From contig JASCQW010000043.1 of NCBI GenBank assembly GCA_030264375.1, positions 77,879,051 to 77,943,050 of the forward strand: DNA of 64,000 bases. The letters are read 5' to 3'. Source of the DNA: Carcharhinus longimanus (lineage: Eukaryota). Positions 3,001 through 6,000 of the stretch are shown here, one piece after another (positions within the stretch are counted from its first letter, which is position 1; each line of letters begins with the position of its first letter). Position numbers: made by a program.

Positions 3001-6000
3001 AAATCGGCAGCACCACCCCCCTCCCCCCACCCAACCCCAGTCATTTCAGGAACAACTAAATACTCAATTTTTTGGAATCACAAATTGTCATCGAGTTATG
3101 GCGTTTAACAGAGAGAGAGATCATTCGGCCCATCATGTCTGCGCCTGCCATCAACCAGCTAGCTATAATCTTCCCACTTTCTCACACTCCTGATTTGTGA
3201 AATAATGGGACATCAACAACATAACATCGTCAGAAATGCTGACAAAGATCAAACAGTGGATGGTTAAATATGTTTATTTTAAACCTTGTTTTAGAAGATG
3301 TAGAATGTTTATTGCCACATATTCGTCTAACATTTTAGAGATAATTCAGCATTTTCTATGGGAGCCAGACGAAAGGTTGCATTCGGTTTGGGTTCAAATG
3401 TACAAAAGGGAGAAAGATCCATCATTAGGACCCCGAGACCATGGCCAATGCCATATCCTCCGCATTTTGCAAAGGGGTTGGGGAGGGGGTGCCGTGAATC
3501 CGACGTGAGGCCAGGGGATGGTGGAGAATTCTTCACAGTGCGCTTCATGGCTGTTGTTCCTTTCCTCTGATGGGAAATGAAGGCTCAGCTCGGAAGTATA
3601 GACCGCGCTGTCTGAAGTTAGCTGGGCCATTGGAAGTAATGGGCTCCGAGTGAAAGAATGCAATGTTAAAATTGAGAGTTTAATTCAAGTTGACGGACTG
3701 GAGCTTTTATTAACCAGTGCTCAGGTATGCCAGATCGCCAGTAAGTGACTGTGAAGGTTGAAAAAGGCTCTGCATTCTGAAAGAGATCTCTGGGCTTCGA
3801 CTGACCTCGAAGAATAAGCCTACATATAAAAAACAGTGAAATTCTTATTTCCAAATTTCAGGCGCATCCCACTGACATTGATCAATTTATTAATCATTGA
3901 ATTATTTTGATTCTATTCAAAAGGGGTGAGTCAGACGAACCTGTAGGTTGGGTCATCTTCTCAGTTCGCTAGTCTTTTTTTTCTCCATTTAATTAGCTAT
4001 CCCATTCTCTCTCCCTAGCACAGGCCGGCAATATTGTTAACATTTTAGAAATGCCCCAAGAGGGAAATGTCTTTTTGCACACTGCTGAGTTTGACTAATG
4101 CAGTGAACAGGGGCGTGTTCTGCAAGCATTAGACTATCCAGACAATGCTGACAGAATGTTCCTAGGTGGCTCGGTTATCAATACTGAACCAAATCGGGAG
4201 TTTCCAATGAATGAACTGAGACCACTCTCTGAATGATCTGCACACCCATCACCTCTGGAAAATCAGCTCAGAATCACACAGAGGATGCTCTGCGGCTCTT
4301 TGTTGGACTAATCCAGATTTGAAATGCAGTTTCGAGGCCGAAACGATCGCTAGGCTGGGACACAGCGATCAGTCCCATCATGCAGCATCTGCTATCAGCT
4401 TCCCCCTTGGCTGAATACCCAACATGAGACATCCTGCATTGTGCAGTCTATTTGTTCAAGCGGTCAGCTTCAAGCAGCACACACGGCATCACATCTGCAA
4501 ACACTCGGGTTATTTTGGCTGGTATCTAATATACTCTGTACATTTGATTTCACCTAAAATGAAAGACGGATCACCTGTCTGTTCAGAATTAAACCGGAGG
4601 CACACCCATTCCCAAGTTCCAGGAAATGTTGCCACACCAGCAGGAATGCCGGCTCCTTCACCTTCAAACAATAAAGGCGTCGCCACTGACTGTGCCCTGA
4701 GCCCGGAGATACTACCATCCTTTCACAGAAAGTAGACTAGCTCCAATATATCTGCAATATCAATCTAATCACCTGTTCATTATTGCAGGCAAGGTAGGTA
4801 CTATGTTAGCATATACATTTGAATCATTTTGCTAGGTCCATGTGCCCGCTATTCGTTCCTCAAACATGGAAAACACTTTACCTCGGGAAGGGATCCGCGT
4901 ATTAAACTGGAGAGGAAGATTGGAAGGTCCACATGCCGCCGCGATGGCTCCAGTTTTCCGGCTGCAGTGGTTTCAGCAGTGAGTGGGGAGGCAGTGTCTG
5001 CTACACGCTGGCTTTCTGCCGTCTACTCTACACAGGGAATGAAGCAGTGCTCTCTCTCTGAGTCCTAGAGCTCAGATTAGATCACCTCCTGTTTTTGCTG
5101 TCGACAGATGGCACGTGATTCCTTTCACAATAAGAGTCGCTTGTACTCTCCTTCCCATCTTCACCCTCAGCAGAATATCCTGCGTGAACAATGGGAGAGA
5201 CCTTCAGAGATTTTCTCTGTGTCCCAGCCTAGCGATCGTTTCGCCCTTAATTTCAAATCTGGATTAGTCTAACAAAGAGCCGCAGAGCATCCTCTGTCTG
5301 ATTCTGAACTGATTTTCCAGAAGTGATGGGTGTACAGATCATTCAGAGAGTGGTCTGTTTAAGAAATGTAGCGGTATTTGGAGTATTAGGGGGATTGATC
5401 CCAGCAACAGTTTGGCAAATTATCCTTTTTTCTGCCCCAGTCATGTTGTCGCCTGCAGAAGGGGTTGACTCATGCTGGCAAACTGGTGAACAGGCCCTGA
5501 CTGCATTCCAATCCTTTCCTCAATTACAATTTTTCTGGTGTGAACCTTCTTAGTTACTGTTAATTGAATGGGTATCCAAACTGAGCACAATCTTCACTCA
5601 CCTGTATGTGTCTTCCAGCAAGCAGTCACTGAGATAATGCTGGACAGCAGGCCCATTTCCTTCATGGCTAATGAATGATCCAGAGTCCTCCTCTAATAAA
5701 ATTACAATGCACATTTTCCAATTTCCAGGACAAATCCCTAAACCATTGATCAGAATTCTGGTCATTTTCACAACAGCAATAAATGGTCAAGGGTTTAAGG
5801 CATGACTGTCATATGAACCCAAGAATCATCAGCCATGTCTTCACAAGGTCCTCCAAATCTGGTGCCAAGAAAGGCATCCAACATTAACATTCTCTCCCAA
5901 GACAACCTACCCAGTGTCAAGATACTAATCAATCCAAACCAGCTCCGTAGGTGGGAAATGTTGTTCTTATGCCTGTTATCAGACTCCCAAAGCACCGAAT

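What the first reader, a model, noticed from the sequence alone, without database searches (positions are those of the whole stretch)
4219..5356. Near-perfect 140-bp inverted repeat bracketing a candidate DIRAS 5'UTR exon or promoter
Seen: 4219-4365 and the reverse complement of 5217-5356 match at 129 of 134 positions plus one short indel patch, around an 851-bp spacer. The arms resemble none of the TE families in this window, retain CpGs, show no obvious TSD, and lie in the only zone of the locus without recognisable TEs. The spacer holds a strong minus-strand donor (4881) and two possible acceptors. Three of the five substitutions become G-U pairs in a DIRAS-sense RNA, which is suggestive but not significant. 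Established: intronic inverted repeats can promote exon skipping, back-splicing and ADAR editing, and can mediate DNA inversions. Inference: either (a) an RNA stem that loops out or circularises a 5'UTR exon, (b) a recombinational flip-flop segment whose orientation switches a promoter or exon, with arms homogenised by gene conversion, or (c) a long-TIR non-autonomous transposon.
Basis: partly seen in the sequence, partly recalled or inferred. Interest (0 to 1): 0.75.

Follow-up and report, generated by a model that had tools for sequence, protein, structure and literature searches.

The report
Lone inverted repeat upstream of DIRAS
A real 145-base inverted repeat encloses 845 bases at the upstream edge of the CpG-rich, repeat-free zone of a Di-Ras GTPase gene, but nothing found here makes it more than a local inverted duplication or a worn low-copy transposon.

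Summary
The inverted repeat is real. Arms 4219-4368 and 5214-5356 pair over about 147 columns, with 5 isolated substitutions and one 14-column indel patch, around an 845-nt spacer. It lies 3.5-4.6 kb upstream of a single-exon Di-Ras2-like CDS on the minus strand.

New context: the window's only CpG-retaining, repeat-free domain (1-5356, CpG o/e 0.56 against 0.22 elsewhere) ends at the outer edge of the right arm.

Apart from its geometry, nothing marks it as a transposon:
- no target-site duplication around the element or around either arm
- no second copy in the 64 kb
- no coding remnant
- no RNA family or tRNA head
- no subterminal repeats

The arms are far more alike than the window's dispersed repeats, whose median identity is 73%.

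My best reading, at moderate confidence, is a lineage-specific local inverted duplication from templated repair or template switching. It sits in a germline-unmethylated promoter-side domain and is probably neutral. A low-copy long-TIR element is a close rival.

RNA-stem and flip-flop functions remain untested. No vertebrate genome, read set or RNA-seq collection was available.

The parts
4219..4368 (.). Left arm of the inverted repeat (150 nt; strictly matched core ends at 4365)
   Evidence: 6 CpGs, CpG o/e 0.64
5214..5356 (.). Right arm of the inverted repeat (143 nt; core starts at 5217); its outer end coincides with the end of the CpG-retaining domain
4369..5213 (.). Spacer, 845 nt. Unique in the window, not palindromic, no protein-family or RNA-family match
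   Evidence: CpG o/e 0.51
4325..4344 (+). Left-arm-only patch: 7-nt insertion (4325-4331) that completes a local 6-bp stem / 4-nt loop hairpin (4329-4344), absent from the right arm. Read as one templated (quasi-palindrome) mutation; this is inference
4880..4980 (-). Donor-like site GAG|GTAAAG (GT at 4881-4880) next to a CpG cluster of 7 CpGs in 100 nt: candidate end of a non-coding DIRAS exon, unproven
   Evidence: (scores below 8 bits)
1..5356 (.). CpG-retaining domain (163 CpGs, o/e 0.56), free of intra-window repeats, holding the Di-Ras CDS and the element. The next 793 nt have o/e 0.14
110..732 (-). Di-Ras2-like coding exon: acceptor at 732, Met codon at 706-704, 198 codons translated from 706 down to 113, stop codon 112-110

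Best explanation
The element is a lineage-specific, single-locus inverted duplication. A stretch of about 145 bp of local, unmethylated promoter-side DNA was copied in reverse orientation about 850 bp away. The likely cause is a replication or repair error: template switching, or a templated 'filler' insertion at a repaired break. It did not arrive by transposition.

It lies at the upstream edge of the germline-hypomethylated domain that holds the Di-Ras2-like gene, and possibly flanks the gene's promoter or first non-coding exon. It is most likely neutral. The two arms would form a duplex of about 143 bp only in transcripts that start upstream of 5356.

Shown: the repeat, its uniqueness in the window, the lack of TSD and other transposon marks, the CpG domain and its edge. 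Inferred: the mode of origin, the methylation state, the position of the start site, and neutrality.
For: - No TSD of 2-12 bp at any symmetric boundary within -3 to +12 nt of the arm ends: 27 short matches listed, none with equal offsets. No TSD around either arm taken alone.
- No other copy of arm or spacer in 64 kb, although 1-6149 is flanked by about 58 kb rich in repeats, with families of up to 8 hits.
- Arm identity (95% ungapped, 89.3% with gaps) sits at the top of the window's repeat-pair identities: 58 HSPs of 100 bp or more, median 73.2%, maximum 89.7%. The event is therefore much younger than the local TE load.
- Arms and spacer have the same CpG o/e (0.64, 0.54, 0.51) as the flank to the left (0.58 for 767-4218). 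All 4 shared CpGs are intact in both arms and 0 of 5 isolated substitutions is CpG-type. This fits local unmethylated DNA copied locally.
- Cartilaginous-fish TEs are reported hypermethylated and start sites hypomethylated (PMC5437953, passages read).
- No transposase, RT or integrase remnant in the element: 0 of 15 ORFs.
- Arm ORF: no homologue. Spacer ORF: 1 hit in 1.84 billion representatives, a chance match to a repetitive HYR/PKD protein.
- No subterminal k-mer enrichment. No Rfam family or tRNA.
- Homology ends sharply at both arm ends.
- The left-arm patch looks like a hairpin-templated change, a small footprint of the same class of mechanism.
Against: - Genome-wide copy number, the decisive datum, could not be measured. 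Absence from 64 kb says little about a low-copy family.
- By base rate (my knowledge, no call), most vertebrate inverted repeats of this size come from transposable elements.
- If one terminus was truncated, the missing TSD loses force, because pairing always ends at the shorter arm.
- The template-switch events in the passages I read are short-range and small: the filter was a fragment of at least 10 bp, and I saw no upper sizes (PMC5453318). A 145-bp copy placed 850 bp away is an extrapolation.
- I cannot tell which arm is the parent, and no junction microhomology test is possible without an outgroup.
- Neutrality is assumed, not shown.
Confidence: 0.4

Rival explanations
1. A non-autonomous cut-and-paste DNA transposon with long terminal inverted repeats (1138 bp, TIRs of about 145 bp) that inserted into open chromatin at the edge of the DIRAS promoter domain.
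For: The geometry (two arms of about 145 nt around 845 nt) is typical of such elements. The spacer has no coding capacity, as expected of a non-autonomous copy. The outer end of the right arm coincides with a compositional break. A low-copy family would not be expected to recur within 64 kb.
Against: - No TSD of any length from 2 to 12 at symmetric boundaries. With arms this similar, a TSD made at the same time should be nearly intact.
- No other copy or fragment in the window.
- No subterminal repeats.
- The termini match no superfamily motif that I can recall. This is recall only; no TE library was available.
- No transposase was found anywhere in the window: 136 N-free ORFs, with only Ras and one RVT_1 above the curated cut-offs.
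- The CpG content equals that of the left flank, and no CpG decay is seen.
Confidence: 0.3
2. A functional RNA element. In a DIRAS-sense pre-mRNA that starts upstream of 5356, the arms pair into a duplex of about 143 bp. This loops out the spacer and promotes skipping or back-splicing of an internal 5'UTR exon, or ADAR editing. It concerns function and can sit on top of either origin.
For: The minus-strand RNA of 4200-5375 folds with the arms paired end to end, -525.7 kcal/mol. Three of 5 isolated substitutions are G-U in this sense. The spacer holds acceptor-like sites at 5179, 5027 and 4906 and donor-like sites at 4881 and 4773. A consensus donor at 5602 could end an upstream first exon. Repeats of 30-40 nt flanking an exon suffice for circularisation in human cell assays (PMC4201285, abstract and passages).
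Against: - Any long inverted repeat folds like this.
- The G-U excess is 3 against 1, not significant.
- The left arm carries a 7-nt insertion that bulges the stem.
- Splice-like sites are no more frequent than elsewhere: 22 acceptor-like sites in 5.5 kb.
- The 4881 donor is sub-consensus.
- CpG-poor sequence begins right at 5357. This suggests the start site is inside or downstream of the element, in which case only one arm is transcribed and a first exon cannot back-splice.
- No Rfam family matched.
Confidence: 0.1
3. Two independent insertions of one short (about 145 bp) retroposon or SINE in opposite orientation, like an inverted Alu pair.
For: Both arms have the same extent, as two full-length copies of one short element would.
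Against: - No TSD around either arm.
- No tRNA-like head: ARAGORN found 0 genes in the window, and Rfam found nothing in the arms at E<=10.
- No A-rich or simple-repeat tail.
- No third copy in a window where real interspersed families recur up to 8 times.
Confidence: 0.05
4. A recombinational flip-flop. Homologous exchange between the arms inverts the 845-bp spacer and switches the orientation of a promoter or exon, with gene conversion keeping the arms alike.
For: The inverted arms are present and candidate promoter or exon features lie in the spacer. Inverted-repeat-mediated recurrent inversions are known in humans (PMC3961182, abstract and passages).
Against: - One assembly shows one orientation only.
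- The arms are short and about 4-5% diverged, with longest identical runs of 27 nt. The one refined breakpoint stretch I read in PMC3961182 was 782 bp at 99.9% identity.
- The differences are spread evenly rather than in conversion tracts.
- I know of no regulated invertible promoter in vertebrates (recall).
Confidence: 0.03
5. An assembly artefact or a contaminant.
For: The window has 17 runs of N and at least one gap-edge duplication, at 59380-59541. The assembly is therefore imperfect.
Against: The nearest N run starts at 7265. The arms differ by substitutions and a 7-nt indel, so they are not one sequence used twice. The spacer is not palindromic. There is no match to 72,556 plasmid records.
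Confidence: 0.03

Closest known systems
Inverted Alu (or other intronic complementary) pairs that flank circularised or skipped exons
   Same: Two complementary arms well above the 30-40 nt shown to suffice (PMC4201285). They sit a few hundred nt apart around sequence that holds splice-like sites, on the sense strand of a gene.
   Different: The arms are not copies of a dispersed family, as far as the window shows. Transcription of both arms is unknown, and the element may contain the start site rather than lie inside an intron. No back-splice evidence exists.
Long-TIR non-autonomous DNA transposons (MITE-like elements)
   Same: Overall geometry and size, and a non-coding interior.
   Different: No TSD, no other copies in the window, no subterminal repeats, and CpG content equal to the host flank.
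Template-switch or templated-insertion mutations that create inverted copies and hairpins (PMC5453318; PMC8794818, title and abstract start seen in a search listing)
   Same: A reverse-complement copy of nearby sequence, no TSD, single locus. The left-arm patch is a small hairpin-completing change of this class.
   Different: The described events are short and close by. A 145-bp copy 850 bp away is at or beyond the upper end of what I read.
Inverted-repeat-mediated polymorphic inversions in humans (PMC3961182)
   Same: Inverted arms bracket a unique segment that could flip by homologous exchange.
   Different: The arms here are far shorter and more diverged, and no second orientation has been observed.

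Membership tests
Cut-and-paste DNA transposon with terminal inverted repeats | Terminal inverted repeats at both ends | tested here: met
   Arms 4219-4368 and 5214-5356, E = 2e-53
Cut-and-paste DNA transposon with terminal inverted repeats | Target-site duplication directly flanking the repeats | tested here: not met
   No direct repeat of 2-12 bp at symmetric boundaries, offsets -3 to +12
Cut-and-paste DNA transposon with terminal inverted repeats | Multiple dispersed copies in the genome | tested here: inconclusive
   0 further copies in the 64-kb window. No genome of the source organism was available.
Cut-and-paste DNA transposon with terminal inverted repeats | Transposase remnant or subterminal binding-site repeats | tested here: not met
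   Pfam: 0 of 15 element ORFs. No k-mer enrichment in the arms.
Inverted pair of SINE/retroposon copies | Each copy has its own TSD, a pol III head and a tail, and the family recurs nearby | tested here: not met
   No per-arm TSD; no tRNA or Rfam match; no third copy
Intronic complementary sequences that drive exon looping or circRNA | Complementary arms of at least 30-40 nt able to pair in the sense RNA | tested here: met
   Minus-strand fold pairs the arms end to end
Intronic complementary sequences that drive exon looping or circRNA | Both arms lie in introns of one pre-mRNA, around an exon with acceptor and donor | tested here: inconclusive
   Splice-like sites are present but at background frequency. 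The CpG edge at 5356 suggests the start site may lie inside the element.
Intronic complementary sequences that drive exon looping or circRNA | Back-splice or skipping junctions, or A-to-G editing, in RNA | not testable with these tools
   No RNA-seq data were available
Invertible (flip-flop) segment | Both orientations of the spacer present in a population or tissue | not testable with these tools
   Only one assembled sequence; no reads
Local templated inverted duplication (template switch or filler DNA) | Single locus, no TSD, copy of nearby sequence in reverse orientation, sharp ends | tested here: met
   single-locus status shown for the window only
Local templated inverted duplication (template switch or filler DNA) | Related species carry one arm but not the other | not testable with these tools
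   No vertebrate genome collection was available
CpG-island-type (germline-unmethylated) promoter domain | Local CpG retention against a depleted background | tested here: met
   o/e 0.56 over 1-5356 against 0.22 over 5357-64000
CpG-island-type (germline-unmethylated) promoter domain | A mapped transcription start site inside it | not testable with these tools
   No CAGE or RNA-seq. Candidate CpG clusters at 4881-4980 and 1101-1530.

The most novel reading that the evidence does not exclude
The repeat is not a transposon. It is a gene-specific cis-element kept by selection at elasmobranch Di-Ras2 loci. It brackets the promoter-proximal non-coding exon and acts in one of two ways: as an RNA duplex of about 143 bp that controls use or circularisation of a 5'UTR exon, or (far less likely) as the arms of an invertible promoter cassette.
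Probability: 0.08. Interest if true: 0.55.

Novelty: new member of a known kind. Interest (0 to 1): 0.25.

Why it matters
If the repeat is only a neutral inverted duplication or a worn transposon, it matters little. It would be one more small structural quirk, useful at most as a dated example of a fairly large templated inverted copy inside an unmethylated promoter domain.

It would matter in either of two cases:
- Orthologous loci in other sharks and rays keep both arms with compensating changes.
- RNA data show back-splicing, exon skipping or editing tied to the arms.

Either result would give a non-TE, gene-specific inverted repeat that regulates first-exon usage of a brain-type small GTPase in an early-branching vertebrate.

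One more finding helps annotate the gene's promoter region: the CpG-retaining domain ends exactly at the right arm.

Tried and rejected
- Hammerhead ribozyme or Penelope-type repeat (prompted by a CGAAAC motif in the arms): Rfam gave 0 matches at gathering thresholds over the window. In 3800-5800 it gave 4 sub-threshold matches, none in an arm and none a ribozyme.
- DIRS-like retroelement (inverted repeats, no TSD): no RT, RNase H or recombinase remnant, and no internal region complementary to the arm ends. Arm against spacer gave z = 1.7 direct and -0.8 inverted.
- tRNA-derived SINE head (a box-B-like motif in the left arm only): ARAGORN found 0 genes, and the motif lies in the left-arm-specific patch.
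- Copy number by proxy through protein collections:
  - Exact look-up of 7 element ORFs: 0 of 7 present.
  - Arm ORF homology search: nothing.
  - Spacer ORF against 1.84 billion representatives: 1 hit, a repeated 22-residue chance match to a bacterial-type HYR_4C/PKD repeat protein.
  - Non-genic ORFs of this locus are not in these collections, so these blanks say little.
- Extended degenerate palindrome beyond the arms: none.
- Plasmid or vector contamination: no match.
- Subterminal repeats: CAGAG occurs 4 times per arm, but 13-17% of shuffles do as well.
- Paper search for shark TE families with long TIRs: 29 papers hold the terms, 15 were listed, and none of those bears on this sequence.

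Not done:
- Scan of genome contigs. It holds bacteria and archaea only and would need a typed pattern.
- Any search of metagenome contigs or viral contigs, which were closed.
- Supplementary files, which were closed and not needed.
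Full report
**Observation.** The repeat is in the sequence as described. The repeat finder gives two collinear inverted pairs, 4219-4325/5250-5356 (107 nt, 95%) and 4335-4368/5214-5247 (34 nt, 94%). 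blastn joins them into one 150-nt alignment (89.3% with gaps, E = 2e-53). It finds nothing else for 4101-5500 in the window except two matches of 16 and 22 nt with E of 0.075 and 0.91.

In the MAFFT alignment the core runs from 4219 to 4365. It has 5 isolated substitutions (three C/T, one C/G, one G/A). It also has one 14-column patch, made of a 7-nt insertion in the left arm (4325-4331) and three mismatches. Outside the patch, 128 of 133 positions agree. Homology ends sharply. Neither the outer flanks nor the two halves of the spacer show any inverted similarity above shuffles (z = -0.5 and -0.3). No N run lies nearer than 7265, and none was filled or looked up.

**Gene context.** The ORF on the minus strand, from its Met codon at 706 down to the stop codon at 112-110, is a Ras-family GTPase (Pfam Ras, 3.8e-48). 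Its best solved relatives are human Di-Ras2 and Di-Ras1 (3.3e-107 and 1.8e-104). It is nearer Di-Ras2 but differs from it by scattered substitutions and a one-residue gap, so I do not take the window for human.

The CDS lies in one exon behind a strong acceptor at 732, 26 nt before the ATG, so at least one non-coding exon must lie upstream. Only this single exon was searched. The element lies 3.5-4.6 kb upstream of the CDS in gene orientation.

**A new piece of context.** CpG observed/expected is 0.56 over 1-5356 (163 CpGs) against 0.22 over 5357-64000. It is 0.14 in the 793 nt just beyond the right arm.

The last CpGs of the dense run are at 5233, 5237, 5242 and 5281, inside the right arm. 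Then come 5372 and 5450, and nothing until 5946. The same 1-6149 stretch has no intra-window repeat except this one, while repeats are dense from 6150 on.

A genome this CpG-depleted is globally methylated. In a cartilaginous fish, TEs are reported hypermethylated and start sites hypomethylated (PMC5437953, passages read). I therefore read 1-5356 as a germline-unmethylated domain that holds the whole short gene and its promoter.

The arms (o/e 0.64 and 0.54) and the spacer (0.51) share the composition of the flank to the left (0.58). All 4 CpGs common to the arms are intact in both, and none of the 5 isolated substitutions is a CpG-decay change. The densest CpG cluster in the element, 7 in 4881-4980, abuts the donor-like site at 4881. 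It ranks among the top five 100-nt windows of the 64 kb. Clusters at 1431-1530 and 1101-1200 are as dense, so the start site is not placed.

**Splice signals.** Five minus-strand sites in 700-9000 score 8 or more: 2136, 2960, 3806, 4773 (8.8, in the spacer) and 5602 (12.9, full consensus, 246 nt outside the right arm). Acceptor-like sites number 22 in 5501 nt. Those at 5179, 5027 and 4906 lie in the spacer upstream of 4881. An exon inside the spacer is therefore possible, but the signals are at background density.

**Is it a transposon?** Apart from the geometry, every test I could run came out negative.
- No direct repeat of 2-12 bp flanks the element at any symmetric boundary. Of the 27 short matches listed, none had equal offsets. 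Neither arm has its own TSD.
- There is no second copy in the window.
- There is no Pfam match for 15 ORFs of the element at E<=1.
- No transposase or integrase was found among 136 N-free ORFs of the window. Only Ras and one RVT_1 (54327-54764) passed the curated cut-offs, and three further matches were sub-threshold.
- There is no Rfam family, no tRNA and no subterminal repeat enrichment.
- The arms are much more alike than the window's dispersed repeats: 58 HSPs of 100 bp or more have a median identity of 73.2% and a maximum of 89.7%.

A TSD made together with arms this similar should still be readable.

Caveats:
- One terminus could be truncated.
- 64 kb cannot exclude a low-copy family.
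- No TE library or source genome was at hand.
- The protein-collection proxies were blank. Non-genic ORFs of this locus are not in those collections anyway (0 of 7), so they carry little weight.

**Best reading.** The element is a local inverted duplication of about 145 bp. It was made by template switching or a templated repair insertion within unmethylated promoter-side DNA, later than the TE load around it, and it is probably neutral. This accounts for the missing TSD, the uniqueness, the sharp ends, the host-like CpG content and the high arm identity.

The left-arm patch completes a 6-bp stem with a 4-nt loop (4329-4344) that the right arm lacks. I read it as one hairpin-templated change. 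The hairpin itself is not statistically special: 42 of 200 shuffles fold as well.

Against this reading stand the base rate of TE-derived repeats (my knowledge) and the small size of the template-switch events described in what I read (PMC5453318, passages). Confidence is 0.4, with the long-TIR transposon at 0.3.

**Function.** The minus-strand RNA folds with the arms paired end to end (-525.7 kcal/mol), as any such repeat would. Three of the four transitions are G-U in the DIRAS sense, which is not significant.

The repeat is long enough to drive exon looping. Repeats of 30-40 nt suffice in human cell assays (PMC4201285). This works only if both arms are transcribed, that is, if the start site is upstream of 5356, where CpG-poor sequence begins.

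A flip-flop by homologous exchange cannot be tested from one assembly. It is unlikely with diverged 145-bp arms whose longest identical runs are 27 nt. The one refined breakpoint stretch I read in PMC3961182 was 782 bp at 99.9% identity.

An artefact or contaminant is unlikely: the arms differ, there is no gap nearby, and there is no plasmid match.

**What stayed unchecked.** The following could not be tested:
- genome-wide copy number
- orthologous loci
- read-level support
- transcription
- methylation

**Verdict.** The promoter-side context is strengthened by the CpG boundary. The proposed mechanisms remain unproven and the transposon reading is weakened. This is a modest finding.

Noticed in passing
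window 5594-5602 (minus strand): Full-consensus splice donor CAG|GTGAGT (12.9 bits, the best of the minus strand in 700-9000), 246 nt outside the right arm in CpG-poor sequence. It could end an upstream first exon, or it could be chance.
   Followed up: partly
window 1101-1530: CpG clusters (7-8 per 100 nt), as dense as any in the window, lie in the stretch just upstream of the coding exon. This is an alternative zone for the DIRAS start site.
   Followed up: no
window 59380-59410 and 59511-59541: A perfect 31-bp direct repeat on either side of the 100-N run 59411-59510. It looks like an unmerged overlap at a gap edge.
   Followed up: no
window 20862-21669 and 22300-23118: An 829-bp direct repeat, 82% identical, on either side of the N run 22200-22299: tandem or nested copies of one repeat family.
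   Followed up: no
window 54327-55751: A reverse-transcriptase fragment (RVT_1, 1.2e-12, 54327-54764) followed by two direct copies of its downstream part (54894-55265 and 55370-55751, 78%) around an N run: a LINE-type element with a duplicated tail.
   Followed up: partly
window 16034-16281, 20208-20542, 35910-36210, 39788-40118, 48986-49261, 49713-50030, 62372-62678: An interspersed family of about 300 bp with 7-8 hits per copy inside the window, probably a SINE. ARAGORN finds no tRNA gene in the window, these copies included.
   Followed up: no
window 6120-6300 (minus strand): The first recognisable repeat upstream of the gene ends in an A-run near 6130-6140. This marks the edge of the repeat-free zone, about 780 nt beyond the CpG boundary.
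   Followed up: no
window 41890-42283: An open frame of 131 codons running into an N run. It overlaps the second-densest CpG cluster of the window (41911-42010) and has no Pfam match above cut-off. It is probably part of a younger mobile element.
   Followed up: partly
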